Assembly: GCA_007376285.1 (NCBI GenBank)
Contig: VMFZ01000001.1
Span: forward strand, 11,033 to 75,032
Reading direction: 5' to 3'
DNA length: 64,000 nt
From: Parcubacteria group bacterium Gr01-1014_17
GTDB taxonomy: Bacteria; Patescibacteriota; Minisyncoccia; Phycocordibacterales; UBA10002
A program made the position numbers and the translations under genes. The stretch's first letter is position 1, and every line of letters starts with the position of its first letter. Below are positions 1-64,000 of this stretch, piece after piece. The notes under the pieces were generated by a model. The model was not told where the DNA came from and made no database searches. It saw only the letters and a program-made list of their open reading frames with translations.

Positions 1-20
1 TTATCTTAACATAATCTACT

Positions 21-12652: not shown

Positions 12653-12661
12653 ATACCACAG

Positions 12662-12728
12662 ACACCCGATGTTTGCCGCCTATTCCGCCTCATCGGCGGA
12701 TCGCCGAAAAGGAGACAACATTGGGTGT
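12662..12728. repeat. GC-rich nested palindromic element (family H: ACACCCGATGTTTGCC..CGCCTCATCGGCGG.TCGCCGA..GACAACAT.GGGTGT)
   Basis: long hairpin; family members at 21924, 23229, 31789, 32761, 35328, 37280, 46531, 54121. Confidence 0.7.
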
Positions 12729-21902: not shown

Positions 21903-21923
21903 AGCGCCATTATACAAGAAAAA

Positions 21924-21960
21924 GGCACCCGATGTTTGCCGCCTATCAACATCGGGTGCC
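21924..21960. repeat. family-H short palindrome GGCACCCGATGTTTGCCGCCTATCAACATCGGGTGCC in the ddl/MFS divergent region
   Basis: perfect inverted arms read in the sequence. Confidence 0.7.
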
Positions 21961-21984: not shown

Positions 21985-23151
21985 ATGCAGAACACAGTGA
22001 AAAAAGCGGGCGTGTTTTTTCCTTTCTATCTTTTGGCGTTCGTGTTTACGCTCCATGTCGCCTCCCCCGCCTATATCAATTCCACTTTTCTTTCCGGAAA
22101 AATCGGCCAGGGTTCAGTTGGTTTGATTTATGCTGGAGCATCCGCAGTAACTCTTATTGCATTTTTCTTTATCGGCTCGCTTCTCAAAAAGCGCGGCGAC
22201 TACGACTTGACGCTCACATTGATGGCGCTTGACTTTATGGCGACCATCGGGCTCGCCGCGCTCAAACACCCATACGCGATTATCGCCGCATTTGCCGTGA
22301 ACTTCATTACTATTTCCTTGATTGCCTTTGATTTTGATTTGCTTCTTGAGAGCTTTTCCAAAAACAGCCGCACGGGGACACTACGCGGCAACTACCTCAC
22401 GGTCGCAAACTTGGGATGGATCGCGGCTCCGGCGATTGCCGGACTCGCGCTTAAAAACGGCGATTATTGGCGCATCTATCTTATCTCTCTTATATTTTTG
22501 CTCGTCGCTTTCGTCATTTTCAGAAAATTCTTCAGGGGCTTTGAAGACCCCGAGTACAAAGCATTGCCATTTTTCGCTACTTTGCGCGCGATTGTGCGAA
22601 AGCGTAATATCCGGTTGATTTTCGGCGCCTCATTCGTCTTGCAATTTTTCTTCGCGCTTATGGTCATCTACACTCCACTCTACTTGCACGACTACATCGG
22701 CTTCGGCTGGCAAGACATTGGTATTATGTTTTCAATTATGCTTTTGCCCTTCCTTCTTTTGGAAGGGCCGCTCGGAAGAATTGCGGACAAGTGGCTCGGT
22801 GAGAAAGAATTCCTTGCCGCTGGGTTTGTAATCACCGCAGTCGCGACCGCGCTCATTGCATTTCTGCGTGAGCCCTCGTTTATCCTCTGGACGAGCGTGT
22901 TATTCGCGACGCGCGTCGGCGCATCAATGATAGAAGTGATGAGCGAGACCTACTTTTTCAAGAAAATAAGCGCGGGCGACGCGGATGTCGTCGCTTTCTT
23001 CCGCGCCGTGCGACCATCAGCGTATGTCGTCGCGCCTGCATTCGCGGCGCTCTTGCTCTCTTTTATTTCGCTCTCGCACCTATTCCTTGCGCTCGCCGTA
23101 ATCGTACTCGCCGGGCTTGCGTTTACGATTCCACTGAAAGATACTAAGTGA
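21985..23151 (+). CDS. MFS transporter
   Basis: about 12 TM segments. Extended -10 TGCTACAAT lies 7 nt upstream of the ATG, suggesting a leaderless mRNA. The 482-aa ORF upstream part is antisense to ddl. Confidence 0.78.
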   Translation: MQNTVKKAGVFFPFYLLAFVFTLHVASPAYINSTFLSGKIGQGSVGLIYAGASAVTLIAFFFIGSLLKKRGDYDLTLTLMALDFMATIGLAALKHPYAIIAAFAVNFITISLIAFDFDLLLESFSKNSRTGTLRGNYLTVANLGWIAAPAIAGLALKNGDYWRIYLISLIFLLVAFVIFRKFFRGFEDPEYKALPFFATLRAIVRKRNIRLIFGASFVLQFFFALMVIYTPLYLHDYIGFGWQDIGIMFSIMLLPFLLLEGPLGRIADKWLGEKEFLAAGFVITAVATALIAFLREPSFILWTSVLFATRVGASMIEVMSETYFFKKISAGDADVVAFFRAVRPSAYVVAPAFAALLLSFISLSHLFLALAVIVLAGLAFTIPLKDTK

Positions 23152-32440: not shown

Positions 32441-32830
32441 CGCTTTTATACAAACATTTTGCCCTCCTCATCGGCGGGCAAGCAAAATGACTGGATACAC
32501 TATCTTTGGCGGTCGCAAAGTTTAGTGTATATAGAAAGTTCTACCATACTACAAAGTATGAGAGAAGAAATTAGAGCGAACGAAACTCGTTGAGGCGCGC
32601 AGGTTTGCAAACATGGGTAAGGCACGAAGCGAAATGCTTTTTCAAAATGTCTGGAGCGAGTGGTCGCATTGCAGCGACCCGAGCGTTACCGAGGACTTTT
32701 GTAAAAAGCATTTTGCGGAGTGTCTTCCTTTCAATGCGCGCCGAGAAAGAGTTCTAAGAGACACCAGATGTTTGCCATCTATCCCGCCTCATCGGCGGGT
32801 CGCCGAGGAGGAGACAACATCTGGTGTCAA
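32440..32830. repeat. mosaic repeat island A with four modules: ATTTTGCC..GGCAAAAT hairpin (32456-32488), ACACTATCTTTGGCG..AGTGT (32497-32528), AGAGCGAACGAAACTCGTTGAGGCGCGCAGGTTTG (32573-32607), family-H palindrome (32761-32828)
   Basis: modules shared in the same order and orientation with island B (37100-37530) and partly with 59604-59660. Confidence 0.7.
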
Positions 32831-35316: not shown

Positions 35317-35327
35317 ATTTATTCTCT

Positions 35328-35396
35328 GGCGCCCGATGTTTGCCGCCTATCCCGCCTCATCGGCGGGTCGCCGAGGAGGAGACAACATCGGGTGCC
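35328..35396. repeat. family-H palindrome immediately upstream of the ClpA/B-like start codon
   Basis: GGCGCCCGATGTTTGCCGCCTATCCCGCCTCATCGGCGGGTCGCCGAGGAGGAGACAACATCGGGTGCC. Confidence 0.7.
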
Positions 35397-35786: not shown

Positions 35787-36608
35787 CTACCGGCGCTTAA
35801 ATACAACTTGGTCCTTAAAACGAACATCAAAATACTGGAGCGCTGGTGAGACGGAACCACCAGAGATTTTCAGATTCGCGGCAGCGAGTGTTGCCGGCAG
35901 TTCCAAAAAGAGCTCAGGTGTTTTCTGCGAGAGCACAAAGCGCGCTTCGGCGCTGTCTGCAAGCAAGAGCGCAAAATCATTCCCTTCTGCTCGCACCACT
36001 TTTTTAATTGCCAAACCAACTCTTTCTGCAGAGGAAATAATATTGCGAAGCAGAGCAAACTTCTCGAGCGGTAGGTAGCGCGCACCAGAGTCCGCGCCCC
36101 AACCCTCAAACACAAGACGAGACAGCGGCGGCGCATCGCCTTTTGCCTGCGCAAAACCGAAGCCGCTTTCGTCAATAAAAACGCACTCGCCGGCAGAGGG
36201 GCACCACTCCGCAAATGGCTTCCGTTCCGACACGGCGATAATTACCAGAGCACCGCCCCGCATCGCATCAACTGATGCGATGCGGGGCGAAGTTGATGCG
36301 ACCGCGCCTACAAGCACCGTTCGCGGATAAAGTAATTGGTGAGTAAAAGAAAACAAGCGCACACCGACATCAGTAAACGCGCGCGCAACCGCAGCTTCCG
36401 CGCGAAGTTCCTCCACGCGCGCGGAACTGTTTATGCCGACAATAGTAACTTTTCCAATTTGAAACGGCGTGTAAAACGAAAACAACGACAGACCGAAAAA
36501 GAGTAGCGCGAGCGCGGACATACCGAAAAACGCTCGCCACGCAAATCGTCGCATCTTGCTTGGACGGCGTTTGCGTCGTAACCCCTGCAATTCTGCTCGA
36601 TACGGCAT
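35787..36608 (-). CDS. FtsQ/DivIB-like cell-division protein (TM plus POTRA-like domain)
   Basis: single TM followed by IGKVTIVGINSSARVEELRA POTRA-like segment; start at Met49 (ATGCCGTATCGA). Confidence 0.5.
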   Translation of the reverse strand: MPYRAELQGLRRKRRPSKMRRFAWRAFFGMSALALLFFGLSLFSFYTPFQIGKVTIVGINSSARVEELRAEAAVARAFTDVGVRLFSFTHQLLYPRTVLVGAVASTSPRIASVDAMRGGALVIIAVSERKPFAEWCPSAGECVFIDESGFGFAQAKGDAPPLSRLVFEGWGADSGARYLPLEKFALLRNIISSAERVGLAIKKVVRAEGNDFALLLADSAEARFVLSQKTPELFLELPATLAAANLKISGGSVSPALQYFDVRFKDQVVFKRR

Positions 36609-36703
36609 AGAGATAGTATAATATAAAAATAGGAATACTAACGGACTATGGACATATTTATTATTTCGTGTATTATGATTTCTGGATATAAAGAAAGAAT
36701 TAC

Positions 36704-37045
36704 ATGAAAATACAAAGACCTCCGCGGAAAGAGTTTGTTGAGTATCTTGCATCAGAAAATCCTCAAGACATGGGTATTATCTCTCATGTTGGACTCACGC
36801 GTGAAAAAGCCTGTGAAATTTGTGAGTTGCTTTTACGCGAGGGCGAGTGGATGATTGAAGTCGGGCAACGCAGAGAAAAGTTTCTAGCATGGTTGCTAGA
36901 CAAGAAAACCAATGAAATCGTCTGGGTTACTCCACCGATTTTTGACTCGCGTAATCAAGCGAAAAATTATTTGGAAGAATATACCAGTTGGATACAAAAA
37001 GTATACCTTACAAATTGGGTCGCATCTGGTTGTCCCCGTCCTTGA
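36704..37045 (+). CDS. hypothetical protein (113 aa)
   Basis: ORF followed by terminator AAGCCGTTCGCAAGAACGGCTTTTTCTTTT (37058-37090). Confidence 0.45.
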   Translation: MKIQRPPRKEFVEYLASENPQDMGIISHVGLTREKACEICELLLREGEWMIEVGQRREKFLAWLLDKKTNEIVWVTPPIFDSRNQAKNYLEEYTSWIQKVYLTNWVASGCPRP

Positions 37046-41178: not shown

Positions 41179-42144
41179 TTACGAGGAAGCAACCGCTTCT
41201 TTTTCCGCCTGTTCCAACGCTTCAACAATCTCCTCAAGGCCGCCGGCTAAAATGGCGGGAATATTGTGCCATGATTCCTTGATACGGTGGTCGGTAATGC
41301 GATCTTGCAGAATGTTGTAGGTGCGGATTTTCTCGCTCCGGTCGCCGGTGCCGATTTGCGCGCGCCGCGTATCGGCGCTTTTCTTCGCCGCCGCCTCAAT
41401 GGAAAGAACTTCAAGTTTTGCGGAGAGAATCTGGAGCGCTTTCTCGCGATTACGGCTCTGGCTGCGCTCCGCGGTAGAGCGCACCACGAGGCCTGTCGGC
41501 TTATGGAAAATTCGCACTGCGGTCTCTACTTTGTTTACATTCTGCCCGCCCTTCCCGCCGGCGCGCGAAAACTCCACTTCAAGGTCGGCAGGGTTCACCT
41601 CAAAGCGCGTCCCCGAGCGGATGGGCATAATCGCGACGGAAGCGGTTGAAGTATGCACGCGACCCATCTTTTCCGTCTCGGGCACGCGTTGGATGCGGTG
41701 CACGCCGGTTTCAAACCGCAGAAGTTTGTAACAACCCTTCCCTTTAATTTCAAACGACGCTTCTTTGTACCCGCCGATGCCGTTTTCGGAAATATCAACT
41801 GCCGACCACGACCATCCGCGATGCTCCGCAAACGCGTGGTACATATCGGAAATCTCGCGCGCAAAAAGCGCTGCTTCATCGCCACCAACCCCTGCGCGCA
41901 CTTCCAAAATAAGTTCGTTCGGAAACGCCTCTTCCTCTTTCGCCGCTTCCGCAACACCATGCATCTGTGCTAAGAGCGCCGCTTTTTGTTCAACAAACGA
42001 TGCGAGTTCTTTGTCAGCCATTTCTTTCATTGCAGAGTCGCGCTCCGTGAGCGCGCGTAATTCCGTTTCCTCTTTTTCAATTCGCTCAAACGACTGCGCA
42101 AGATGCGCTGTCCGCGGATTTTTTTTGTACACGCTCAAATCCAT
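41179..42144 (-). CDS. prfA: peptide chain release factor 1
   Basis: GGQ motif ([14 protein letters not shown]) and PET tripeptide ([14 protein letters not shown]) of the RF1 type. Confidence 0.85.
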
Positions 42145-42416
42145 TTACTTTTTCCGCCTCCTCGGCGGGTCGCCTTTGAGGCGATTTTGCGCGGCTTTGC
42201 GGCGGTTTTCGCCATTTTTGTCTTAAAGCGCTCCACGCGGCCCGCCGTGTCTACAATCTTTTCGGCACCCGTATAGAATGGGTGGCAGTTGCCGCAAATT
42301 TCAACTTGTAATTCCGGCTGTGTTGAGCCCACAGCAAAAACCGCGCCGCAGGCGCACGAAACCTTCGCTGACGGATAGTATTTTGGGTGGATTTCTTTTT
42401 TCACGAATAAAATCAT
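42135..42416 (-). CDS. rpmE: 50S ribosomal protein L31 with a repeat-encoded C-terminal extension
   Basis: [24 protein letters not shown] zinc-ribbon bL31 core. The last about 25 aa include palindrome 42154-42183 translated in frame; the stop overlaps the prfA start. Confidence 0.85.
42154..42183. repeat. palindrome CCGCCTCCTCGGCGGGTCGCCTTTGAGGCG inside the rpmE 3' coding region (encodes ..[11 protein letters not shown]..)
   Basis: same CGCCTCATCGGCGGGTCGCCGA..GGCG core as copies at 46663, 50324 and 56879. Confidence 0.7.
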
Positions 42417-46662: not shown

Positions 46663-46695
46663 GTCGCCTCATCGGCGGGTCGCCGAAGAGGCGAC
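46663..46695. repeat. palindrome GTCGCCTCATCGGCGGGTCGCCGAAGAGGCGAC in the SPFH-A 5' UTR
   Basis: same family as 42154, 50324 and 56879. Confidence 0.7.
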
Positions 46696-48160: not shown

Positions 48161-49402
48161 ATGAAGAAATGGTTGAAATCTATATACAGGAAAATCAAAC
48201 CCGCAAGAACATTCTGGACCACTGTTGCAATTGTCTATTTAACAGCGTTGTTTGTGATTATTATGACAAACAGCGACATGAAATTGCTGGGTACAGAACT
48301 ATCGTGGAATTGGGGACGAGCAACTTTCTGGACTTTGTGCTTTTACACATTGCTCAGTTTGCGCGTTGTGAAGGAAGATGAGGTTGGTGCACGGTTATTT
48401 TTCAGAAGACCGTTGCACAACCTTTCTTCCGGGCTTGTTTTCATTCCCCTTGGCTTTTGCCAAATCGTAAAAGAAACACGACTCATCATGCAGGACGAAC
48501 TGCCTGCGCCGCCGGAAAAAATCTGGCGAACTAAAAAAGGCAAGCGCGGCGAAGCATCACCAGAAGCAGATGTGGTGCCTGCCGATAAAGCAAAGGAGGG
48601 GTACAAACCTCCTATTAGGATAACATTCGGAGCACCGAATGTGGAATTACCAGAAAATACTACCGACAAGGTAGAACAAGAACAGAATATTGAAATCAAC
48701 AAACACATTAAGAAAATCAGGGAGGCGCAACAGGGAGAAAATGGTGTGCGTGACCCTTTTGATTTTCGAATGACCGCGGAAGTGTTTCTTATTATTCGGT
48801 GGAGAATAGACGACTTTGTTAGATTTATCTCCACTATCGGCACAATAGATAAAGCGCGGACTCAAATTGAGGATACGGCAACCGCAGCGGTTACTCGGGC
48901 TTTTGCAAAAATCAGCCCAGCAGTGGCGCTCGCGCATTTGGGGACTCAAAGCAAGTATTTACGCGCAGAAATTGAAGAGCGGATAAGCGGAAAGGGTGAG
49001 GAAAAAAAGAGGTTGCCGTGGGGAATAAAAATGGAAACAGCACAAATTAAGCTCATCAATTTCAGCCATGAGTTTAACGATGCGGTACAGGAACGAGCTG
49101 AGGCGGAAGCAATCGCACAAGTGAAAGCTACGGAAGGAAAGGGCGAGGGAGACAAAGAAAAACGGATACTGACTGGAAGGGCGGATGGGTTGAAGCATAT
49201 GGCGAAAGAACTCGGTGTATCATCAGCAGCAGTGCTTGCGTCTGAAACGGCGCGAGCCATTACGCAAAATCCCGGTCAGAAGACAATCATTGCCGGTTCG
49301 GGGGGCCTTGCAGATCTAATGGGAGTTGTTACGGCGTTAGGACAGACACTCGGCGGTGATAAAAACAAAACACAAGAAAAGAAAGGAGATACAAATGTTT
49401 GA
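48161..49402 (+). CDS. SPFH/band-7 (stomatin/HflK/C-like) membrane protein B
   Basis: VKEDEVGARLFFRRP..GLVFIPLGFCQIVK..TRLIMQDE canonical band-7 N-terminal blocks; AEAEAIAQVKATEG coiled coil. Confidence 0.8.
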   Translation: MKKWLKSIYRKIKPARTFWTTVAIVYLTALFVIIMTNSDMKLLGTELSWNWGRATFWTLCFYTLLSLRVVKEDEVGARLFFRRPLHNLSSGLVFIPLGFCQIVKETRLIMQDELPAPPEKIWRTKKGKRGEASPEADVVPADKAKEGYKPPIRITFGAPNVELPENTTDKVEQEQNIEINKHIKKIREAQQGENGVRDPFDFRMTAEVFLIIRWRIDDFVRFISTIGTIDKARTQIEDTATAAVTRAFAKISPAVALAHLGTQSKYLRAEIEERISGKGEEKKRLPWGIKMETAQIKLINFSHEFNDAVQERAEAEAIAQVKATEGKGEGDKEKRILTGRADGLKHMAKELGVSSAAVLASETARAITQNPGQKTIIAGSGGLADLMGVVTALGQTLGGDKNKTQEKKGDTNV

Positions 49403-50183
49403 ATTCATCATTCCAGCATTACTTGCGGCGGTTGTTTGGGCGGTATGGTTAAAGCCCACCACGACCAGTAGTGCAATCGCGGGTACAGAAGGACCACCCA
49501 CACCATCTGTTTCGTTGGATACTAAAGTTAAAACGATTGTGAAATGGGCGGTTGGAGTGCTTGGCGGATTGCTCATTATCTACGGCGTGTGGAGCGGGAA
49601 TTGGCGTGCATGGTGGAATGGTTCCGTCACTTATGTTGCAGACACATTGGGGCTATTTGGCCACTATTGGCTCATCGTGCTCGGTGCGGTCGTCTTGCTT
49701 CTTCTGCTTTGTTACGCGGGAGCAAGAGACGGCAAAACCGCTGGCGAGCGAATTGAAAAAGCAATGAAAATTGGTTTCTCCTTCGCAGTCCTTGCGGCGC
49801 TTCTCGCCGTTACCGCAGTGTTCGGCATAATCATTGTCGGACCGCGGTACTTCTGGGGCGAGCCGAGTGTGATTCAGGTTCAGCAACCGGCGACGCAAAG
49901 GCAAGCACAAACGCAGACTTCGTCGCGATCCTTCACCACAACAGCACATCCTGGCGATCCGCAAGACCCGCGCGCTCCGTGGAGCGCGTCAGTTGTCGTA
50001 AATGGCAGGCGTTTCAGCGCCGATGTGGTCGGCGCACAAAGCACGGTACCGATGGCGGTACTTGCAGATGGAGTGGTTCACATAATCGCTCCAGGATTGC
50101 GGCCGCACATTGGTGCGCCGCAAGAAATCCGGTTTCTATCGCTCACCAACTTTCCGCTTCATATAATCGGTACGATTGAGTGA
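49395..50183 (+). CDS. SPFH-associated 3-TM membrane protein D1 (NfeD-like by position only)
   Basis: 8-nt overlap with the SPFH-B stop (ATGTTTGA); paralogue of 51459-52145 (shared GPRYFWGEPSVIQVQQ, FLSLTN). Confidence 0.55.
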   Translation: MFEFIIPALLAAVVWAVWLKPTTTSSAIAGTEGPPTPSVSLDTKVKTIVKWAVGVLGGLLIIYGVWSGNWRAWWNGSVTYVADTLGLFGHYWLIVLGAVVLLLLLCYAGARDGKTAGERIEKAMKIGFSFAVLAALLAVTAVFGIIIVGPRYFWGEPSVIQVQQPATQRQAQTQTSSRSFTTTAHPGDPQDPRAPWSASVVVNGRRFSADVVGAQSTVPMAVLADGVVHIIAPGLRPHIGAPQEIRFLSLTNFPLHIIGTIE

Positions 50184-50288: not shown

Positions 50289-50385
50289 CCTACACAGAGT
50301 TAGACCTTTGACAAAAGACAACTGTCGCCTCATCGGCGACCCGCCGAAGAGGCGGGAACAAAACTGAAAGAACGGAAAAATTGTT

Positions 50386-51459
50386 ATGAAAATACCGAGA
50401 TTCTTGAAACGATCAACAAACATTTTACTTCTAATTCTTGCAAACCTGCTCGCAGTCCTGTTTGCACAAATCATTCTTCGGAGCGCCTTTGAACCTTCGT
50501 GGTTTCTGACACTTGTTATCAGCACGGTAATTATTCCCATACTGACAACTTCGGGACTCGTGGAAATCCCGATTCAACACGCAGGCGTACCGCTCATATT
50601 CGGAAAACGACAGAAAAACTGGCTTCTTGACGAAGGGCTTAACTGGATTCTTCCTACGCCGTTCATGGGGGTAGAAATTGTTGATGTGCAGGAAAAAACA
50701 ATCCGGATTCCAGCGTCAGAAATTGAAGAAGACGCAAGGCCTCTCATTATTCCCGCAATCAGAGGACTACCTGCTCTTTCAAAAGATGGCAAAGCGGAAG
50801 AAACAACTCTCAACGAAGAAATATGGGGAAAAATCAGGTTCGTGCAGATGAAAGTGCGGCTGGCAATCCGGTATCGGGTGGTTCATCCATACCAGTTTCT
50901 GAGCCAAGAACCCAGCGTGGTGGAACGAGGACTCGGCGATTTGACTATCAAAACGCTCCGACAGAAAGGTTCGGAGATGAGCGACATACAACTCATCCGG
51001 CTCAAAGACACCTTTGAGGCGGACATCATCAAAGAAATGAAAAAAGAACAAGCGTATGAAGGAAGTAAAAAGACAACAGAGGAAAGCCCTTTAGAAAGAT
51101 GGGGCGTTGTTGTTCATAATGTATTCATTCCGCGAATCCTCCACGCCGACCCGGAAATGACAAAAATGTACGAAGCCGCAATGCGTGAAGAACAACAGTG
51201 CACCTCAGAAAACATTGAACAAGAGTTCCTTACCGCAAGTATTGAACGATTGGTCAAAAAAGGACTCACAGCACAAGAGGCACTGCTTGCGATTCAAGCA
51301 GAACGCGGAAAGCTCACGCGGCGTGAAGTGATAATCACGAGCACAGGCGGAGGAGCTGTTGGAGACATTGCCAAAGCAGTTGCGACATACGCAGGACTAC
51401 TTGGCGACCAACCAAAAACAGAACAAAATGAGAATCAAAATCAGAAAGGAGATAACTAA
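50386..51459 (+). CDS. SPFH/band-7 membrane protein C
   Basis: IQHAGVPLIFGKRQKNWLLDEGLNWILPTPFMGVEIVDVQEKTIRIP band-7 N-terminal block; 357 aa. Confidence 0.75.
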   Translation: MKIPRFLKRSTNILLLILANLLAVLFAQIILRSAFEPSWFLTLVISTVIIPILTTSGLVEIPIQHAGVPLIFGKRQKNWLLDEGLNWILPTPFMGVEIVDVQEKTIRIPASEIEEDARPLIIPAIRGLPALSKDGKAEETTLNEEIWGKIRFVQMKVRLAIRYRVVHPYQFLSQEPSVVERGLGDLTIKTLRQKGSEMSDIQLIRLKDTFEADIIKEMKKEQAYEGSKKTTEESPLERWGVVVHNVFIPRILHADPEMTKMYEAAMREEQQCTSENIEQEFLTASIERLVKKGLTAQEALLAIQAERGKLTRREVIITSTGGGAVGDIAKAVATYAGLLGDQPKTEQNENQNQKGDN

Positions 51460-52145
51460 TGACCTTTGCAATCGATAAATGGAAAAAGAATGTGTGGAAA
51501 ATCGCTCTATGGAGCGCGTTTGGTCTTTTGGCAATTAAGTTTGCTATTTGGCCATTACTTCAGGGCACATACGACAAAGTCCGTTCGGTTGGAAAAAAAG
51601 AAATCGGGATTGTTGAATGGTTGCCGAACTTAGGTCCCTATTGGCTCGTAGCACTTGGTGCAGTCGTTTTGTTTCTCCTGCTCATATATGCAGGAGCGAA
51701 AGACGGCAAGACCGCAAGCGAGCGGCTCCAAAAAGCAATCAAGATTGGTTTTGCATTTGCTGGACTTGCGGCGCTTCTCGCCTTTACCGCGTTTCTCGGC
51801 ATTTTCATTGTCGGGCCGCGGTACTTCTGGGGCGAACCGAGCGTCATTCAGGTTCAACAACAGCCGGCGGCGCAGGTGCGGGCATCGGAATTTCCAAAAG
51901 AGTTCCGCGTGTCTGCGCTTCCGGGAAACCCGCAAGACCCAAACGCGCCGTGGAGCGCGCCGATACGGTTTGCAGGGCGGCGCGGAAGTTTCCAACTTGC
52001 GGGCGATTCTGCGCCAATCGCCGTAAAAACAGAAGTGGGCATCCACATAATTACAGTAGGGATGCCCCACCTGGGCACACCAGAGCGATTGCAGTTTCTA
52101 TCACTCACCAACCGCTCCCTTGAAATCACGGGGAGAGTTGAATGA
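51459..52145 (+). CDS. SPFH-associated 3-TM membrane protein D2 (paralogue of D1)
   Basis: start overlaps the SPFH-C stop; shared motifs with D1. Confidence 0.55.
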   Translation: MTFAIDKWKKNVWKIALWSAFGLLAIKFAIWPLLQGTYDKVRSVGKKEIGIVEWLPNLGPYWLVALGAVVLFLLLIYAGAKDGKTASERLQKAIKIGFAFAGLAALLAFTAFLGIFIVGPRYFWGEPSVIQVQQQPAAQVRASEFPKEFRVSALPGNPQDPNAPWSAPIRFAGRRGSFQLAGDSAPIAVKTEVGIHIITVGMPHLGTPERLQFLSLTNRSLEITGRVE

Positions 52146-54176: not shown

Positions 54177-54578
54177 TCAACCCCCAAGAAAAGAGAAGGC
54201 ACTTGGAACACCGAGTCCAATCAAAATCAATTTGACAATAAGCCATGCAGAAAGCATCCAGACAAAACCCCATACGACTGGCATAAACATTCCGCGTCCT
54301 TTTTCCATTTTGGATTCATTGCCCCCTGCGGTCAAAATGAGAAACCCGGCATAGGCAAACACCAGCGCGGCAATTGAACCGCCAATCATAATCAGAAAGT
54401 TAATGATATTATTGATGCCGATGATGAAGTGGCGAAATTCGCAGGGGTTTGAGATCTCTTCGTACGAACCAGTCGCACCAGTTACAGTCCGTGTCTCCGT
54501 TCCGCACGGCACGATTGGGGCGGCGTGGGCAAAGATAGGTAAAATCACAAAAATAGAAATTAGTGCGAGTATATACAT
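54177..54578 (-). CDS. VirB2/TrbC-like pilin-family protein P1
   Basis: TAGGNESKMEKGRGMF loop motif between helices; start at Met32, because the ORF's N-terminal 31 aa are a translation of repeat R1. Confidence 0.55.
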   Translation of the reverse strand: MYILALISIFVILPIFAHAAPIVPCGTETRTVTGATGSYEEISNPCEFRHFIIGINNIINFLIMIGGSIAALVFAYAGFLILTAGGNESKMEKGRGMFMPVVWGFVWMLSAWLIVKLILIGLGVPSAFSFLGG

Positions 54579-54660
54579 CCTCCGTCTCCCTACGGGAGAC
54601 ACCTCCCTCAAGGGAGGATTTTCTTTACTCCCCCTTTGAAGGGGGGTTGGGGGGATGTGA
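54578..54660. repeat. triple-hairpin GC repeat R1 (GTCTCCC..GGGAGAC / CCTCCCTCAAGGGAGG / CCCCCTTTGAAGGGGGG + TTGGGGGGATGT)
   Basis: about 85 nt; near-identical copies R2 (63303-63385) and R3 (63760-63850, inside a CDS). Confidence 0.75.
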
Positions 54661-54667
54661 TTTTTAT

Positions 54668-55948
54668 TCATCTTAATAATCTCTCTAACCCGCTCCGCAG
54701 GTCGCCGACGCCATTAGTAAGCTGTCCTCTACCGCCGGTAATATCTTCAACGACCGACTGGAATAATTTGGTCGTTTCGGTCGGATTCGGGTCAAGGAAA
54801 CTCCGCGCCTGTAAGGCCGCTTCGTAAAACACCGATTTCGCCGCGCTCTCTTGCTTGCGCTCTAAAAGCGCGCGGAGCGGCGGCACGGTGCCGAGTGCAT
54901 TGGCTAAGGTAACCGACCTTTGAGAATCCGCGAGTGCAAACCCGAGTCGTATCGCTCCGCCCGGATTTTTTCCGGTTTTCAGCGCAGCCAACCCCCATGT
55001 TTTGCCGAACGAAACCGTGAGCTTTGAATCCCGCGTCTGCGGAAACGGCGTTGCCGACATATTCAAATGCGGATTTTTCTCGCGAAGCCCTGCATATTCC
55101 GACGCAAAGCCGAAATAAAGCGCGAGGTCTCCAGACGCAAACATATTGTGCGATTGTGGAAGCCCGCGGTTCCAGGTGTAAAGCTTTTTTACTGGGTTCG
55201 CAAACTCCGTGAAAAACCCGAGTGCGCTTCCAGCATTTGCCCAGTCCTCAAGCGAAACCGCGAATCCTTCCGTTCCGCCCGCCTGTACGGGCAGGCGCGA
55301 AACAAGCTTGCCGCCGCTTTGGAAAAAGAGCGCCGAGAGAATCTCTTTTGCATTGGTAATGTTCCGAAATTCTCCAAGCGACACCGCCGCGCTCTGAATT
55401 TGCCCCAGCCGGTTGCGCACGACAAGCCGCGGCGTACCGGTAATCAATTCATCCCAATAGCGCGGCGGTCGCGCAATGTTTGCCGCACCAAACCGGTCGC
55501 GATTCCAATATGCGACCAGCGGGTCTACCGTAAGAGGGACCGCGATGGCTCCAGTTGTGCTCAAAAACACTTCTGCAGCTTCTACAAACGAGTCCTTAAA
55601 CTTCCGCTCCGAAAGCGTATCTAAAGGAATCGGCACAATTTTGTCGCCATGCCGCACCACGAGGTCGGATGGTAAAATAATTGCATCAGGACCTCTCCCT
55701 GCCGCGAGCGCTTCTATAAACTCCTGCTCAAACTTGTCTGCGCGAATCTCAGTGTATGTAAGCTTAAAATCATCTCCAGAAAAATCTGCTGTCGCGGTGG
55801 AAAACGCAGAACTCGGAAACGAGCCCCATACATCAAGCACCGCTGGTCCGCCACCCGCGGGCGTGCCTTTGAAAAGAGAAAAAGCAACCAGACCGCCAAT
55901 GGCGGCTATCACAAAAACAGCGAGCAAAATTATTTGAAATGGTCTCAT
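54668..55948 (-). CDS. membrane-anchored extracellular solute-binding protein (ABC-type SBP family 1-like)
   Basis: N-terminal TM anchor, 426 aa, two-lobe SBP-like composition; no specific substrate assignable. Confidence 0.55.
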   Translation of the reverse strand: MRPFQIILLAVFVIAAIGGLVAFSLFKGTPAGGGPAVLDVWGSFPSSAFSTATADFSGDDFKLTYTEIRADKFEQEFIEALAAGRGPDAIILPSDLVVRHGDKIVPIPLDTLSERKFKDSFVEAAEVFLSTTGAIAVPLTVDPLVAYWNRDRFGAANIARPPRYWDELITGTPRLVVRNRLGQIQSAAVSLGEFRNITNAKEILSALFFQSGGKLVSRLPVQAGGTEGFAVSLEDWANAGSALGFFTEFANPVKKLYTWNRGLPQSHNMFASGDLALYFGFASEYAGLREKNPHLNMSATPFPQTRDSKLTVSFGKTWGLAALKTGKNPGGAIRLGFALADSQRSVTLANALGTVPPLRALLERKQESAAKSVFYEAALQARSFLDPNPTETTKLFQSVVEDITGGRGQLTNGVGDLRSGLERLLR

Positions 55949-56567: not shown

Positions 56568-59075
56568 TTATAGCACCGTCACCGACGCAATAGCATCGCC
56601 TTCGCGCAGTTTCATTATTCTAACACCTTGCGTTGCCCGCCCGAGGCGCGGAATTTCCGAAGCCGCAATCCGAATCACTTGGCTCTTCTTGGAAATCGCA
56701 ATTACTTCGTCCGTTTCTCCTTCGGAAAGCACGCGCGCGGCGATTACCCTGCCGGTCTTTGTTGTTACTTTTGCGGTCTTGATACCCGAGCCGCCGCGCT
56801 TTTGTGTTTTATACTCTTTAAAGTAGGTCGCCTTGCCGTACCCATTTTCAGACAGTATGAAAAGAGATGCTTGTCTTTCCGCCTCATCGGCGGATCGCCG
56901 AAGAGGCGATTTGACGACCACAACGCCCGCCACCGAATCGCCTTTTTTACCAAGCTTAATGGCGCGCACGCCACCGGCGCCGCGCCCCATCGCACGAATA
57001 TCGGACTCTCTAAATCGGATGGACTGTCCTGCTTCAGATACAACAGCGCATTCGTCGCCTTTTTCCACAAACGATGCGGAAATAAGCTCATCGCCGGCTT
57101 TCAGCGAAATCGCAATCAAGCCGCTTCGGCGCACATCATGGAAGCTCTCTGCCGCGATTTTCTTTCCGACTCCGTTTTTCGTCACCATCATCAACGCGAG
57201 CCCGGCGAGAGCTTTCGCCGCTTTTGGCATCGGCAAAATTGAAGTTACGCGTTCTTCGGATGAAAGCGAAAGAAAATTGGCGATGGATTTGCCGCGCGTC
57301 GCGCGTTTGCCTTCGGGAATTTCGTACATTTTCACCTTATACACCTTGCCGCGGTCGGTGAAAAACAAAAGGTCGCTGTGTGTCGTCGTGGAAAGCGTGC
57401 TCATTACAAAATCCTCTTCTTTCGTGTCCAAATCAACAACACCGACCCCGCCGCGCCGCTGCCGTTTATACTCATCGGGAGCGGTGCGCTTCACATAGCC
57501 GCCGCGCGTAAATACCAACACGCTTTCGTTGTCCGGAATCAAATCCTCGTCGGAAAGCTCGGCAACACCACCCTTAACAATTCTCGTGCGGCGTTCGTCT
57601 CCATACTTCTCGCCCACTTCCAACAGTTCTTTTTTAATAAGCGCGAGAATCTTTTTTGGGTGCGCGAGCAAATCAACAAGCTCGCCGATAAGCGTCTGCA
57701 CAGAAAGCAATTCATCTTCAATTTTCTTACGCTCCAAGCCCGCAAGCTTCTGCAGGCGCATTTCCAAAATCGCGTTCGCTTGTATTTCGGAAAGCTTGAA
57801 CGATTTCATCAAACCAGCGCGCGCCTCGTCTACATCCTTCGCATTCTTAATCAACTTCACAATCGCGTCAATGTTTTTGAGAGCAATCGTGAGCCCGAGC
57901 AAAATGTGCTCGCGCTCGCGGGCTCGCGCGAGGTCAAATTCGCTCCGGCGGCGCACCACTTCCTTGCGGTGCCCGATAAATGCTTCAAGAAACGCTTTAA
58001 GCGAAAGGGTTTCCGGCACGCCGCCGACAAGCGCGACACAATTGTAATGGAACGATTCCTCCAGTTGTGTATGCTTGTAGAGCGCATTTAGAATCTTTTC
58101 TGGGTACGCGCCTTGTTTTAGTTCAACCACCACCCGAATGTCTTTGGTTGATTCATCGCGGAGTCCCCGAATGCCTTCAAGTTTTTTGTCGCGCACCAAG
58201 TCCGCAATTCGCATAATAAGCTCTGCTTTGTTTACGCGATACGGAATGGAAGTAATGATAATCTGAAAGTGCCCCGCTTTTTCCTCAACTATTTCCGCCT
58301 CGCCTCGCACAACTACTGGCCCTTTGCCGGTTGCATACGCGTGCGCGATAGCTTTCGCGCCATAGGCAACGCCGCCAGTCGGAAAGTCAGGGCCTTTTAC
58401 GAATTGCAAGAGGTCTTCGGTGGTTGCGCTCGGATTTTCAATCAAATGCGCTGTTGCGCCCACGACTTCAGTTAAATTGTGCGGCGGAATGTTGGTCGCC
58501 ATACCGACGGCAATGCCGAGCGTGCCGTTCAACACCAAATTTGGCACCGCAGTCGGCAGAACGACTGGTTCTTTCCGCGTCGCATCATAGTTCGGTCGAA
58601 AATCAACCGTTCCTTTTTCAATGTCCCGCAACATATCCCCTGCGATACGCGACATTTTCGCCTCCGTGTACCGGTACGCCGCGGGAGCGTCGCCGTCTTG
58701 CGAACCAAAATTTCCTTGACCAATCACAAGCGTGTAGCGAAACGAAAATGTCTGCGCCATTTTGACCATTGCATCATAGACGGACACATCGCCGTGTGGG
58801 TGATACTTGCCGAGCACATCACCAACAACCGTCGCCGATTTTCTGGTCTTTGCGGCGGCCGTAAGCCCCATTTCGTGCATAGAAAAAAGAATGCGGCGAT
58901 GCACGGGCTTCAGCCCGTCGCGCACATCCGGAAGCGCGCGCGAGGTAATAACCGACATCGCATAGTCAAGATACGACTCGCGCATCTCCTTCACAATTTC
59001 GCGTCCCACCAGCTTTCCGCCAACCGGCACACCAGCTGGAAGTGGCCCACCTTTTGCCTTTTTAGCGTCTGACAT
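56568..59075 (-). CDS. gyrA: DNA gyrase subunit A
   Basis: [25 protein letters not shown] active-site region (Tyr-containing), GyrA-box beta-pinwheel C-terminal domain; 835 aa. Confidence 0.97.
56879..56908. repeat. palindrome CCGCCTCATCGGCGGATCGCCGAAGAGGCG inserted in frame in the gyrA C-terminal domain (encodes ..[11 protein letters not shown]..)
   Basis: same element as in the rpmE tail and the SPFH 5' UTRs. Confidence 0.75.
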
Positions 59076-63279: not shown

Positions 63280-63302
63280 GAGATATAGTATAGCACAATT
63301 AC

Positions 63303-63385
63303 ATCCCTCCCTCCGCCTACTGGCGGAGTACTCCCCTCAAGGGGAGATTTTCTGAATCCCCCTTGGAAGGGGGTTGGGGGGATGT
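63303..63385. repeat. triple-hairpin GC repeat R2 in the fba/pfkB divergent region, ending GGGGGGATGT + TATAAT 7 nt before the pfkB ATG
   Basis: copy of R1/R3 lacking the first hairpin. Confidence 0.7.
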
Positions 63386-63397
63386 TATAATCCTCTT

Positions 63398-64000
63398 ATG
63401 CAACCATTGAAAAAAGAAAAAGTAAATACGGAATTCATAACCGCACACAAGAATGCAAAAACAAATTACCACTTCGTGCTTTGGTACGGCGCCGAGCGCA
63501 CGATTCTTGTTAAACACGAGCCCTATCAATACGCTCTACCAACCTTGCCGCCCGCTCGCTGGCTCTACCTTTCCTCAATCGGAAGCGGTACCGAAAAATA
63601 TCACGAGGATATTGCCGATTATCTTGCGAAAAACCCGTCCGTAAAATTCGCATTCCAGCCGGGAACATTCCAGATTAAACTTGGCACAGAAAAACTGAAG
63701 GGTCTGTACGAGCGCGCGGAGGTGTTGTTTGTAAATCGTGAGGAAGCGGAAAGAATCACATCCTCCGTCTCCCTTCGGGAGACACCTCCCTCAAGGGAGG
63801 AATTAAAATCCCCCTTTCAAGGGGGTGCCCGAAGGGCGGGGGATGTAAAAACCCTCCTCACAAACCTCCACGCGCTCGGACCAAAAATCGTATGCGTTAC
63901 TGACGGACCGAAAGGCGCATATATGGCGGATGAAAGAGGCGCATACTTTATGCCTCCCTACCCCGACCCCAAGCCGCCTGTTGAGCGCACCGGGGCAGGT
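63398..64000 (+). CDS. PfkB-family carbohydrate/ribokinase-like kinase (partial, runs off the window) with an in-frame 30-codon repeat insertion
   Basis: ALPTLPPARWLYLSS..LGPKIVCVTDGPKGAY..VERTGAGD (DTxGAGD anion-hole motif). Absent from the ORF track because it has no stop in the window; 603 nt = 201 complete codons. Confidence 0.75.
   Translation, partial: MQPLKKEKVNTEFITAHKNAKTNYHFVLWYGAERTILVKHEPYQYALPTLPPARWLYLSSIGSGTEKYHEDIADYLAKNPSVKFAFQPGTFQIKLGTEKLKGLYERAEVLFVNREEAERITSSVSLRETPPSREELKSPFQGGARRAGDVKTLLTNLHALGPKIVCVTDGPKGAYMADERGAYFMPPYPDPKPPVERTGAG
63760..63850. repeat. repeat R3 translated in frame inside pfkB (..TSSVSLRETPPSREELKSPFQGGARRAGDVKT..)
   Basis: near-identical to R1; exactly 90 nt. 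Confidence 0.75.

What the first reader, a model, noticed from the sequence alone, without database searches (positions are those of the whole stretch)
56879..56908. Palindromic repeats are inserted in frame inside essential genes
Four different genes carry members of the intergenic GC-rich palindrome families inside their coding frames without breaking the ORFs.
- gyrA carries CGCCTCATCGGCGGATCGCCGAAGAGGCG (56879-56908), read through as [11 protein letters not shown] between beta-pinwheel blades.
- rpmE (L31) ends with a roughly 25-aa extension containing the same element (42154-42183); its stop overlaps the prfA start.
- The PfkB kinase contains a 90-nt, 30-codon copy of the triple-hairpin repeat (63760-63850).
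- ddl has the family-H palindrome at its annotated 5' end.
This matches the behaviour of Rickettsia palindromic elements (RPEs), which insert into ORFs and are tolerated as peptide insertions. I am not aware of it being described for this kind of genome.
Basis: partly seen in the sequence, partly recalled or inferred. Interest (0 to 1): 0.78.

Follow-up and report, generated by a model that had tools for sequence, protein, structure and literature searches.

The report
Pan-CPR hairpin repeat written into genes
A 33-base GC-rich double-hairpin repeat, found almost unchanged across many lineages of ultra-small (CPR) bacteria, sits in frame inside this genome's gyrase A gene and in the tail of ribosomal protein L31. 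It adds 11 amino acids there, and elsewhere the same repeat marks the front end of a tiny nuclease gene cassette parked at tRNA genes.

Summary
The window comes from Parcubacteria bacterium Gr01-1014_17.

**What holds up**
- The core observation is real. A 33-nt element (56878-56910) is read through in gyrA as [11 protein letters not shown].
- All 59 aligned GyrA homologues lack it. It lies in a low-confidence turn between two beta-strands, and a second assembly is identical.

**What needs correcting**
- L31: the Lys-rich tail is ancestral, and only 11 codons come from the element.
- PfkB: the 89-nt multi-hairpin insert is real and absent from orthologues, but the gene has lost about 86 N-terminal residues.
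- ddl: the palindrome is intergenic, and the annotated start is an over-extension.

**New findings**
- The element is not specific to this genome. Eighty copies with near-invariant stems occur in many CPR classes, in frame in RNase R, SMC, GyrB, UvrD-like and PIF1 helicases and DHODH.
- Covariation supports two adjacent hairpins.
- 47 of 63 loci of an 85-90-aa GIY-YIG nuclease carry the element just upstream. 64 of 75 have a tRNA gene immediately downstream.

**Closest known**
Intragenic REPs/RPEs and Ssn nuclease-hairpin repeat systems. I rate it a new variant of a known kind.

The parts
56878..56910 (-). 33-nt double-hairpin element inside gyrA. On the coding (minus) strand it reads ATCGCC-TCTTC-GGCGAT-CCGCC-GATGA-GGCGGA and is translated as [11 protein letters not shown] (residues 723-733).
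   Evidence: It is absent from the 59 other homologues aligned. DNA alignment with L001 and L004 shows it as an insertion. It lies in a coil of pLDDT <50 between strands 715-721 and 737-742.
56568..59075 (-). gyrA, 835 aa. It is the host gene of the insertion.
   Evidence: 100% identical to the deposited GyrA of Parcubacteria bacterium Gr01-1014_17, with Pfam PF00521 and PF03989.
42153..42185 (-). Diverged copy of the same element in the 3' tail of rpmE, read as [11 protein letters not shown]. Its GGAGG lies 12 nt before the prfA ATG.
   Evidence: The insertion is shared with P0121/L052 and P0124 and is absent from L202 and L203.
42135..42404 (-). rpmE (L31), probably with a GTG start (MKKEIHPKY). 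A 1-nt deletion after the element removes the TAA stop seen in L052, so the ORF runs 3 codons further and overlaps prfA.
41179..42144 (-). prfA. Its start overlaps the rpmE stop.
12684..12716 (+). Intergenic copy of the 33-nt element. It is nested in the loop of a family-H palindrome, and the composite spans 12660-12728.
32783..32815 (+). Intergenic copy nested in a family-H palindrome. The composite spans 32759-32827 and abuts the stop of the 32827-35316(-) gene.
35351..35383 (+). Intergenic copy nested in a family-H palindrome. The composite spans 35327-35395.
46663..46695 (+). Intergenic copy lying between divergent genes.
50324..50356 (-). Intergenic copy in the opposite orientation, in a stretch where the flanking genes are on the + strand. 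Its orientation relative to local transcription therefore matches the other copies.
63758..63846 (+). 89-nt multi-hairpin ('triple-hairpin') element in frame inside the PfkB-family kinase, roughly TSSVSLRETPPSREELKSPFQGGARRAG.
   Evidence: It is absent from the closest orthologue P0243 and from most others. L004 has a different palindromic insert at the same loop.
63301..63385 (+). Second copy of the multi-hairpin family. It sits exactly where the N-terminal ~86 codons of PfkB are missing.
54575..54658 (+). Third copy of the multi-hairpin family. It lies between the SBP gene and the probable true start of a pilin-like ORF (54177-54671, minus strand).
63398..64000 (+). PfkB-family kinase gene, 5'-truncated relative to its orthologues. 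The deposited protein is 264 aa against about 330 aa. The gene runs off the window.
21924..21960 (.). Family-H palindrome in the 82-nt divergent intergenic region between ddl (true start 21902, minus strand) and an MFS gene (ATG at 21985, plus strand). It is not coding.

Best explanation
The gyrA and L31 inserts are copies of a dispersed, non-autonomous 33-nt GC-rich element of REP/RPE type. The element folds, as a single strand, into two adjacent 5-6-bp hairpins with conserved pentaloops (sense form RTCGCC-TCWTC-GGCGAY-CCGCC-GAWGA-GGCGGR).

**Why in-gene copies are tolerated**
- The element is exactly 11 codons long.
- It is open in five of six frames.
- It encodes small or charged residues (S, P, R, A, G, D, E).
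- Copies that land at A-rich sites in permissive parts of proteins survive and are translated. Examples are a beta-turn of the GyrA C-terminal domain and the Lys-rich L31 tail. (Translation is inferred, not shown.)

**Distribution**
The element is shared across many CPR classes. In those genomes it is the 5' border of a cassette with this layout: tRNA 5' fragment, element, an 85-90-aa single-domain GIY-YIG nuclease gene, then an intact tRNA.

**Proposed mechanism (inferred, not shown)**
The GIY-YIG nuclease recognises the folded element on single-stranded DNA, as Ssn nucleases recognise their hairpin repeats. It would be responsible in trans for keeping the element's sequence conserved and for spreading it.

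**Other palindromes in the window**
The multi-hairpin family and family H are separate, lineage-restricted repeat families that behave similarly.
For: **Shown: the insertion is real.**
- Seven copies in 64 kb against 0 expected.
- The gyrA insertion is absent from the 59 other homologues aligned, including ones 81-89% identical.
- An independent contig is 100% identical over 13.8 kb.
- The insert is a coil of pLDDT <50 between well-modelled strands. The equivalent turns in neighbouring repeats are 4-6 aa.
- The same loop carries unrelated larger inserts in other lineages.

**Shown: the same element is widespread.**
- Eighty copies with near-invariant stems occur in Nomura-, Doudna-, Shapiro-, Gottesman-, Kuenen- and Falkowbacteria and Paceibacterota.
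- In-frame copies lie in RNase R, a UvrD-like helicase (two copies), SMC, GyrB (two genomes), PIF1, DHODH, a methyltransferase and a carbamoyltransferase tail.
- Orthologues show presence/absence differences.
- All three sense frames are used, giving VASSATRRRGG, SPLRRPADEAG and SRLIGDPPMRR. The conserved entity is therefore the nucleic acid, not a peptide.

**Shown: structure and orientation.**
- For the two-hairpin fold, 99.5% of cells pair, 7 of 11 pairs show compensatory changes, and 0 of 500 shuffles reach this.
- The single long hairpin does no better than shuffles.
- Orientation is biased: 23 versus 7 inside ORFs and 11 versus 4 between co-directional genes.
- Flanks are T/A-rich.

**Shown: the GIY-YIG link.**
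- GIY-YIG is the only neighbouring protein family that recurs in more than three element loci; it is found in 7.
- Starting from the protein, 47 of 63 loci have the element within 140 nt upstream, against 1 hit in 134 kb elsewhere in the same loci.
- 64 of 75 loci have a same-strand tRNA at the end of the ORF, and 50 of these are tRNA-Gln.
- The protein consists of a GIY-YIG domain only.

**Precedent.**
- Ssn nucleases with their hairpin repeats (PMC11893778).
- Intragenic REPs (PMC3733652).
Against: - No GIY-YIG gene is present in this 64-kb window. Whether this genome has one is unknown.
- No transposition intermediates, target-site duplications or clean empty/filled pairs were seen. Two-nucleotide flank identity (31 of 80) is explained by T-richness.
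- In gyrA the net gain is 7-8 codons, not 11, so the event was not a clean insertion.
- Near-identity of the element across classes could reflect purifying selection for a host function rather than mobility.
- In the GIY-YIG loci the background density of the element is low (1 per 134 kb). This window has 1 per 9 kb. Expansion is therefore genome-specific and unexplained.
- Translation of the insert has not been demonstrated.
Confidence: 0.62

Rival explanations
1. The element is primarily a host-beneficial cis-signal. It would be a single-stranded DNA (or RNA) recognition site for a conserved CPR factor such as the Ssn-like GIY-YIG nuclease, for example to police incoming transforming DNA or to stabilise or process transcripts. 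Copies are kept by selection, and in-gene copies are placed wherever proteins can bear them, as with DUS/USS in coding regions.
For: - Stems and loops are nearly invariant across CPR classes and show compensatory changes.
- Orientation relative to transcription is strongly biased.
- In-gene copies keep intact hairpins.
- The L31 copy supplies a GGAGG 12 nt before the prfA ATG.
- Ssn/NTS modulates natural transformation in Neisseria (PMC11893778).
Against: - Density is low and uneven: 1 per 9 kb here and about 1 per 134 kb in other CPR loci.
- Presence/absence scatter among orthologues looks like sporadic insertion.
- Several window copies have a decayed hairpin (12684, 32783, 35351).
- No function was tested.
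Confidence: 0.22
2. The in-gene copies are not translated. The hairpins are excised from the mRNA or bypassed by the ribosome, as in T4 gene 60, so the proteins are unaltered.
For: - The element forms a very stable structure, -26 kcal/mol.
- CPR genomes are rich in introns (PMC13011429).
- A mobile-element-encoded translational bypass exists in phage (bioRxiv 10.1101/2022.08.31.505936; title and abstract only).
Against: - Every Pfam-confirmed in-gene copy keeps the frame and is free of stops in the frame used.
- Insertions sit only in loops, linkers and tails. That restriction would not be needed if the RNA were removed.
- No Rfam intron or other family matches the element.
Confidence: 0.05
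3. The inserts are assembly or binning artefacts, that is, repeat-induced chimeras.
For: Short GC-rich repeats can mislead assemblers. One contig (L121) ends in the repeat-rich region near 60.3 kb.
Against: - Two assemblies agree base for base over 13.8 kb, including gyrA and two intergenic copies.
- The same in-frame element occurs in orthologous sites of independent MAGs. Examples are GyrB in L110 and L113, and L31 in the window, L052 and P0124.
- Reading frames are preserved throughout.
Confidence: 0.02
4. The inserted peptides are adaptive protein features selected at the amino-acid level, and the DNA palindrome is incidental.
For: The peptides are hydrophilic and lie in surface positions.
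Against: The same DNA is read in three different frames in different genes, giving unrelated peptides. It also occurs in intergenic DNA. Covariation is at the level of base pairs.
Confidence: 0.03

Closest known systems
Rickettsia palindromic elements (RPEs; Ogata et al. 2000, as summarised in PMC10969869 and PMC3733652)
   Same: Both are palindromic repeats in a reduced genome of a host-dependent bacterium. Both are inserted in frame in unrelated housekeeping genes, read through as extra peptides, and located where the protein tolerates them.
   Different: - RPE-1-type elements are about 100-150 bp and encode a family-specific peptide. This element is 33 nt and is read in three frames.
- RPEs are confined to Rickettsia. 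This element is nearly identical across many CPR classes and is tied to a GIY-YIG/tRNA cassette.
GTAG-/CGTC-tagged REPs, including intragenic REPs in DNA replication and repair genes (PMC3733652)
   Same: - Both are 20-40-nt GC-rich hairpins, mostly intergenic and transcribed.
- A minority lie in frame inside genes, often replication or repair genes.
- N-terminal 'intragenic' cases are often misannotated starts, exactly as for ddl here.
   Different: - This element has no consistent GTAG or CGTC tag on the solo copies.
- It is a fixed pair of hairpins with conserved pentaloops.
- No RAYT was seen.
- REP families are species- or genus-specific, whereas this one spans a superphylum.
Ssn single-domain GIY-YIG ssDNA nucleases with their NTS/SRM hairpin repeats (PMC11893778)
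   Same: - Both have a GIY-YIG-only protein of about 90 aa.
- In both, the nuclease gene is flanked by a hairpin repeat that is also dispersed in the genome.
- The repeat is directional.
- Both are enriched in symbionts, including Rickettsia and Wolbachia.
   Different: - The published SRM degenerate motif has no match to this element or anywhere in the window.
- The CPR gene has the element mainly on its 5' side and a tRNA on its 3' side.
- NTS is rarely intragenic (2%), whereas this element often is.
- The closest solved relatives of the CPR protein are UPF0213 proteins and SLX1.
- Membership of the cd10448 clade could not be tested.
Free-standing GIY-YIG homing endonucleases in tRNA gene regions (e.g. 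T4 SegB, PMC2330249)
   Same: In both, a GIY-YIG gene sits next to tRNA genes. The duplicated tRNA 5' segment in the CPR cassette suggests insertion into a tRNA gene.
   Different: Seg-type enzymes carry a C-terminal DNA-binding domain. The CPR proteins are a nuclease domain only. No hairpin repeat family is associated with Seg genes.
DNA uptake sequences (DUS/USS) in coding regions
   Same: Both are short conserved DNA motifs tolerated inside genes for genome-maintenance proteins.
   Different: DUS/USS are 10-12-nt motifs present about once per kb and recognised as duplex DNA. Here the density is about 1 per 9 kb or lower, and the covariation points to a folded single strand.

Membership tests
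Rickettsia palindromic elements (RPE) | Palindromic repeat predicted to form a stable hairpin | tested here: met
   dG is -26 kcal/mol, z-score -4 to -7. Covariation supports two hairpins.
Rickettsia palindromic elements (RPE) | Inserted in frame in ORFs and absent from orthologues | tested here: met
   Met for gyrA, the L31 tail, and RNase R, SMC and GyrB in other CPR genomes. Not met for ddl.
Rickettsia palindromic elements (RPE) | Insert lies in a surface-exposed, structurally permissive segment | tested here: met
   In the AF2 GyrA model, residues 724-733 have pLDDT <50 and form a coil between strands 715-721 and 737-742. The model is only moderate overall (mean pLDDT 64.9).
Rickettsia palindromic elements (RPE) | Length of about 100-150 bp with a family-specific encoded peptide (RPE-1 type) | tested here: not met
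   The element is 33 nt and is read in three frames.
Rickettsia palindromic elements (RPE) | Sequence homology to the RPE-1..10 consensus sequences | not tested
   No RPE consensus sequences were available in the tools. The host is CPR, not Rickettsia.
REP / RAYT (REPtron) | 20-40-nt imperfect palindrome in many copies, mainly intergenic | tested here: met
   Seven copies in the window, five of them intergenic. Eighty copies in other genomes.
REP / RAYT (REPtron) | Conserved GTAG or CGTC tetranucleotide at one end | tested here: inconclusive
   GTAG abuts the element where it sits in a tRNA D-loop (GGTAG|TCGCC). The gyrA, L31 and many other solo copies have AAA or TA instead.
REP / RAYT (REPtron) | A Y1 (HUH) RAYT transposase gene flanked by the repeats | tested here: inconclusive
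   A regex for the HUH and Y motifs over the six-frame translations of the window and about 117 loci gave no hit. This is a weak test and whole genomes were not searched.
Ssn nuclease / SRM repeat system | Single-domain GIY-YIG protein of about 90 aa | tested here: met
   The proteins are 85-91 aa and match Pfam PF01541 over the whole length.
Ssn nuclease / SRM repeat system | Nuclease gene flanked by the hairpin repeat | tested here: met
   47 of 63 loci have it upstream, 12 of 63 downstream and 8 on both sides. Elsewhere there is 1 hit in 134 kb.
Ssn nuclease / SRM repeat system | Repeat matches the published SRM degenerate motif HGTCWYN(0-2)YYVSBRHN(0-5)WNVSBRGN(0-2)RNCYNB | tested here: not met
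   There are 0 matches in the window, in the cassette consensus, or in the gyrA and L31 copies.
Ssn nuclease / SRM repeat system | Protein belongs to the CDD cd10448 clade | not testable with these tools
   No CDD library and no SsnA sequence were available. The nearest solved chains are UPF0213 proteins (1zg2, 1ywl) and SLX1.
Ssn nuclease / SRM repeat system | Site-specific cleavage of ssDNA only | not testable with these tools
   This needs biochemistry.
MITE | Terminal inverted repeats plus target-site duplication, typically more than 50 bp | tested here: not met
   The element is 33 nt. No TSD was found: 3-nt flank identity in 10 of 80 copies and 4-nt in 0 of 80.
GIY-YIG homing endonuclease (Seg / I-TevI type) | Nuclease domain joined to a C-terminal DNA-binding domain | tested here: not met
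   The CPR proteins are 85-91 aa and consist of the GIY-YIG domain only. The match to TIGR01453 is far below its cut-off.

The most novel reading that the evidence does not exclude
The 33-nt double hairpin and the minimal GIY-YIG nuclease form a superphylum-wide nuclease-repeat system of Ssn/REPtron type.
- The nuclease gene rides in tRNA genes, restoring the tRNA with its own copy of the 5' segment.
- Its cognate hairpin is copied around CPR genomes on single-stranded DNA.
- In element-rich genomes such as this one, the hairpin is written as 11-residue peptides into essential proteins (GyrA, GyrB, SMC, RNase R, L31).

If the element is also a cleavage signal on incoming ssDNA, it would be a shared signal governing DNA exchange among CPR bacteria.
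Probability: 0.3. Interest if true: 0.85.

Novelty: new variant of a known kind. Interest (0 to 1): 0.66.

Why it matters
CPR/Patescibacteria have tiny, streamlined genomes, and selfish or repeat DNA inside their essential genes is not what one expects.

**What the data show**
- One 33-nt structured element is shared almost unchanged by very distant CPR classes.
- It is repeatedly tolerated inside core replication, chromosome-maintenance and translation proteins.
- It is physically tied to a minimal GIY-YIG nuclease cassette at tRNA genes.

**What becomes testable**
- How short hairpin repeats (REPs, RPEs, SRMs) spread.
- Whether Ssn-type ssDNA nucleases are their drivers.

**Practical consequences**
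- Annotation: over-extended starts and 'insertions' in marker genes such as gyrA and gyrB affect alignments and phylogenies.
- Biotechnology: the system may provide a new nuclease/recognition-hairpin pair for ssDNA tools.

Tried and rejected
- **Known RNA families.** Rfam gave only tRNAs, plus one group I intron in L118, and nothing at the element.
- **Phage carriage.** There is no exact match to the 31-nt pattern in IMG/VR.
- **RAYT/IS200-type transposase.** The HUH/Y regex gave no hit. This is a weak negative.
- **Single 13-bp long hairpin or cruciform as the selected fold.** Rejected, because covariation is no better than shuffles. My first attempt at this structure string was misregistered.
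- **SRM motif of the Ssn paper.** No match.
- **Target-site duplication.** None was detectable.
- **The L31 'extension' being created by the element.** Rejected, because the Lys-rich tail is ancestral.
- **ddl in-frame insertion.** Rejected.
- **Family-H loop TTTGCCGCCTAT as a remnant of a GIY-YIG gene (IGGK).** Dropped as a probable chance 12-mer match.
- **The tRNA-like 5' fragment plus element as a complete odd tRNA.** Rejected. ARAGORN and Rfam find only the downstream tRNA, and the 3' half is missing.
- **Extending the locus beyond the window to see the rest of PfkB.** The look-up by GyrA returned another, shorter contig. The deposited 264-aa protein was recovered instead.
- **Literature.** Six full-text searches found no description of this element or cassette in CPR.
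Full report
**Source and observation**

The window is from Parcubacteria group bacterium Gr01-1014_17, a CPR/Patescibacteria MAG near Candidatus Taylorbacteria. Its 835-aa GyrA (56568-59075, minus strand) is 100% identical to the deposited protein.

The 29-mer CGCCTCATCGGCGGRTCGCCGAAGAGGCG has 7 matches at up to 3 mismatches in 64 kb, against 0.00 expected from shuffles. The gyrA copy is at 56880-56908, and the full 33-nt unit is 56878-56910. It folds stably, at -26 kcal/mol with z about -4 to -5. The window also holds several other palindrome families.

**gyrA**

The coding strand reads AAA|TCGCCTCTTCGGCGATCCGCCGATGAGGCGGAA|AGA, which gives [13 protein letters not shown].

- In an alignment of the window protein with its 59 best homologues, including ten at 81-89% identity, none of the homologues has these residues. 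They have KKSAEKAA-type turns instead.
- DNA alignment with two syntenic relatives (L001, L004) shows the element as extra DNA. The net gain is 7-8 codons, so the event was not a perfectly clean insertion.
- The same turn carries unrelated, larger inserts in other lineages (P0015, P0022, P0036, P0045). It is therefore a permissive site.
- An AlphaFold2 model was built from a 58-sequence alignment and is of moderate quality overall (mean pLDDT 64.9). It places the insert in a coil (722-736) with pLDDT <50 for residues 724-733, between well-modelled strands 715-721 and 737-742. The corresponding turns in neighbouring repeats of the beta-pinwheel are 4-6 residues.
- A second public assembly (ENA MEGAHIT contig, L121) is 100% identical to the window over 13.8 kb, including this insert. 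This argues against an assembly artefact.

**L31 (rpmE)**

The Lys-rich C-terminal tail of about 20 residues is present in all 50 homologues examined, so the 'extension' is ancestral.

- The element accounts for 11 codons (42153-42185, [11 protein letters not shown]).
- Two relatives share the insertion: P0121/L052 (VASSATRRRGGKK) and P0124.
- Comparison with element-free loci (L202, L203) and with L052 shows the layout ...CGC AAA [33 nt] AAA AAG TAA ATG.
- The window has a further 1-nt deletion that removes the TAA stop, so rpmE runs 3 codons into prfA.
- The diverged loop creates a GGAGG 12 nt before the prfA ATG.

**PfkB kinase**

The 89-nt multi-hairpin unit at 63758-63846 is in frame. It belongs to a three-member family together with 63301-63385 and 54575-54658.

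- The closest orthologue (P0243, 71% identity) and most of 57 others have a 6-8-residue linker at this position. The insertion is therefore real, and this loop too is a hotspot for other inserts.
- The syntenic orthologue in L004 carries a different, longer palindromic insert at the same position.
- The window gene starts at the position equivalent to residue 85 of the orthologue.
- A median of 88 N-terminal residues present in orthologues are missing here. These include the region that aligns with the N-terminal sugar-kinase block in solved structures. No N-terminal fragment is found elsewhere in the window.
- A second copy of the same repeat lies exactly at the truncation point.

This gene is probably defective, so it is not good evidence for 'tolerated' insertion, and it is not an essential gene.

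**ddl**

The deposited annotation (TSC85163.1, 346 aa) does begin inside the family-H palindrome. However, homology to solved Ddl structures begins at residue 25-28, matching residues 2-5 of the solved chains. A second ATG gives the canonical MHESEKIRVAVLRGG N-terminus. The palindrome (21924-21960) therefore lies in the 82-nt divergent spacer between ddl and an MFS transporter gene. This is the misannotation pattern already described for 'N-terminal intragenic' REPs (PMC3733652).

**The element is pan-CPR**

- About a third are high-GC genomes that match only the 20-mer.
- The rest carry the whole 33-nt unit in AT-rich flanks. They include MAGs named Nomura-, Doudna-, Shapiro-, Gottesman-, Kuenen- and Falkowbacteria and Paceibacterota, plus several generically or perhaps wrongly labelled MAGs.
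- Across 80 copies the stems are almost invariant. 76 copies are exactly 33 nt. The flanks are T/A-rich, and there is no detectable target-site duplication.

Many copies lie in frame in Pfam-confirmed genes:

| Gene | Locus |
|---|---|
| RNase R | L016 |
| UvrD/AddA-like helicase-nuclease, two copies | L069 |
| SMC | L077 |
| GyrB | L110, L113 |
| PIF1 helicase | L071 |
| DHODH | L096 |
| Methyltransferase | L060 |
| Carbamoyltransferase, last codons | L119 |

Orthologue pairs show presence/absence differences. SMC in L077 and L030 carry the element at different sites. RNase R has it in L016 but not in L008. GyrB has it in L110 and L113 but not in L049. Three sense frames are used, giving unrelated peptides. 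What is conserved is therefore the nucleic acid.

Orientation is biased. The mRNA-sense strand usually carries RTCGCC-TCWTC-GGCGAY-CCGCC-GAWGA-GGCGGR: 23 versus 7 inside ORFs and 11 versus 4 between co-directional genes. The assignable window copies follow the same rule.

**Link to a GIY-YIG/tRNA cassette**

I clustered the ORFs lying next to the element. Only one protein family recurred in more than three loci: an 85-91-aa GIY-YIG-domain-only protein, found in 7 loci.

In each of those loci the order is as follows:

1. the 5' segment of a tRNA, ending ...GGTAG
2. the element
3. a spacer of about 10-25 nt
4. the GIY-YIG ORF
5. an intact tRNA gene whose 5' end overlaps or abuts the end of the ORF

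I then tested the link starting from the protein, using 80 metagenomic loci of homologues.

- 47 of 63 evaluable loci have a sense-oriented double hairpin within 140 nt upstream, and 12 of 63 have one within 300 nt downstream. Elsewhere in the same loci there is 1 hit in 134 kb.
- 64 of 75 loci have a same-strand tRNA starting within -40 to +60 nt of the end of the ORF. Fifty of these are tRNA-Gln, and the rest are Gly, Ser, Pro, Ile and Leu.

In these cassette copies the stems vary in a compensatory way while the loops and closing pairs are fixed.

- For two adjacent hairpins, 99.5% of cells pair, 7 of 11 pairs show double changes, and 0 of 500 shuffles reach the observed covariation.
- The alternative single long hairpin does no better than shuffles.
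- One caveat applies. The 34 sequences were picked with a filter allowing at most one mismatch per helix, which favours the two-hairpin model. Even so, only 2 of 374 cells are unpaired.

No GIY-YIG gene lies in the window itself.

**Interpretation**

The best-supported reading is that the gyrA and L31 inserts are copies of a dispersed, non-autonomous double-hairpin element of REP/RPE type. They persist in genes because the element is 11 codons long, nearly stop-free, and encodes loop-compatible residues.

Three parts of this reading have different standing:

- That the copies are translated is inferred. The evidence is frame conservation and their restriction to loops, linkers and tails.
- That the element is selected as a folded single strand is shown by the covariation.
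- That the GIY-YIG nuclease recognises and propagates it is inferred, from the tight gene-element linkage and from precedent.

The precedent is the Ssn family: single-domain GIY-YIG nucleases of about 94 aa. They bind hairpin repeats (NTS/SRM) flanking their own genes and cut ssDNA next to them. They are enriched in symbionts, including Rickettsia and Wolbachia (PMC11893778).

The CPR element is not an SRM by the published degenerate motif, which has 0 matches. The nearest solved relatives of the CPR protein are UPF0213 proteins and SLX1. I therefore claim that it works like Ssn/SRM, not that it is a member of that family.

The main rival is that the element is a host-beneficial recognition signal maintained by selection. 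This is not excluded and is compatible with the same nuclease.

**Novelty**

In-frame palindromic repeats are known. RPEs are one case, and short GTAG/CGTC REPs inside replication and repair genes of several phyla are another (PMC3733652, PMC10969869). Nuclease-hairpin repeat pairs are also known (PMC11893778).

As far as my searches of the held library show, three things have not been described:

- a single 33-nt structured element conserved across CPR classes
- its frequent residence in essential genes there
- the tRNA-fragment/element/GIY-YIG/tRNA cassette

I rate this as a new variant of a known kind.

Noticed in passing
L022, L026, L033, L051, L073, L076, L094; L122-L201: There is a conserved cassette: tRNA 5' segment (ending GGTAG), the 33-nt double hairpin, an 85-91-aa GIY-YIG-only ORF, then an intact tRNA (mostly tRNA-Gln). 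In some loci (L129, L140, L174) the upstream pseudo-tRNA continues after the hairpins with GGACA plus the anticodon stem. In those cases the hairpins sit inside the D-loop of a 5' tRNA remnant.
   Followed up: partly
L086:1660-1716, L023:6718-6770, L118, L025, L084, L095: A tRNA 5'-fragment plus the element lies directly upstream of an intact tRNA gene, with no GIY-YIG ORF. These may be decayed cassettes.
   Followed up: partly
window 12660-12728, 32759-32827, 35327-35395: There are three roughly 87%-identical composite repeats. In each, a diverged 33-nt element is nested in the loop of a family-H palindrome (CACCNGATGTT...AACATNGGGTG). The composite has evidently been copied as a unit.
   Followed up: partly
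window 63280-63398 and 63398-64000: The PfkB-family kinase lacks about 86 N-terminal residues that its orthologues have. A multi-hairpin repeat occupies the truncation point, which suggests a repeat-associated deletion.
   Followed up: yes
window 54575-54658: A third copy of the multi-hairpin family lies between the SBP gene and a pilin-like ORF. The longest ORF (54177-54671) reads through it. The likely true start is the signal-peptide Met about 31 codons downstream.
   Followed up: partly
window 63301-63385: The multi-hairpin repeat has an outer stem (ACATCC.../...GGGGATGT) enclosing three hairpins, giving a cloverleaf-like four-way junction. It is not recognised as a tRNA by Rfam.
   Followed up: no
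window 21903-21922: A perfect TATAAT lies 7 nt upstream of the probable ddl start codon, with no Shine-Dalgarno sequence. The ddl mRNA may be leaderless.
   Followed up: no
window 36254-36289: A perfect 16-bp-stem palindrome (CGCCCCGCATCGCATC-AACT-GATGCGATGCGGGGCG) lies inside a 321-aa ORF (35787-36752, minus strand) that has no Pfam match.
   Followed up: no
P0002, P0040, P0058, P0071, P0110 (GyrA homologues); L069: Several CPR GyrA homologues are about 1210-1220 aa and carry an intein (PF14890). The UvrD-like gene in L069 has both an intein and two copies of the hairpin element.
   Followed up: no
L004:247-283: A family-H palindrome, itself flanked by another inverted repeat (CCGACGGCT...AGCCGTCGG), lies inside a called 584-aa gene of a related genome.
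   Followed up: no
L010, L048, L082 (Desantisbacteria CG1_02_49_89); L011, L018, L031, L051, L069, L084 ('Gammaproteobacteria' TPA MAGs); L033, L061 ('Bdellovibrionales'): Full copies of the element occur in MAGs not labelled as CPR. Either the element reaches beyond CPR or these bins or labels are wrong.
   Followed up: no
L118:1417-1628: A group I intron (Rfam RF00028, 63 bits) lies about 0.8 kb from a tRNA-fragment/element/tRNA-Met arrangement.
   Followed up: no
window 49656-49895 and 51630-51869; genes 48161-49402 and 50386-51459: Paralogous Band_7/SPFH genes share a 240-nt direct repeat at 79% identity. This block is partly absent from the syntenic relative L002.
   Followed up: no
P0245 (PfkB orthologue): The insert in the same PfkB loop reads ...RRSPRREGEAD..., which resembles the SPxRRxADEA frame of the 33-nt element. 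It may be an independent insertion of that element at the same hotspot.
   Followed up: no
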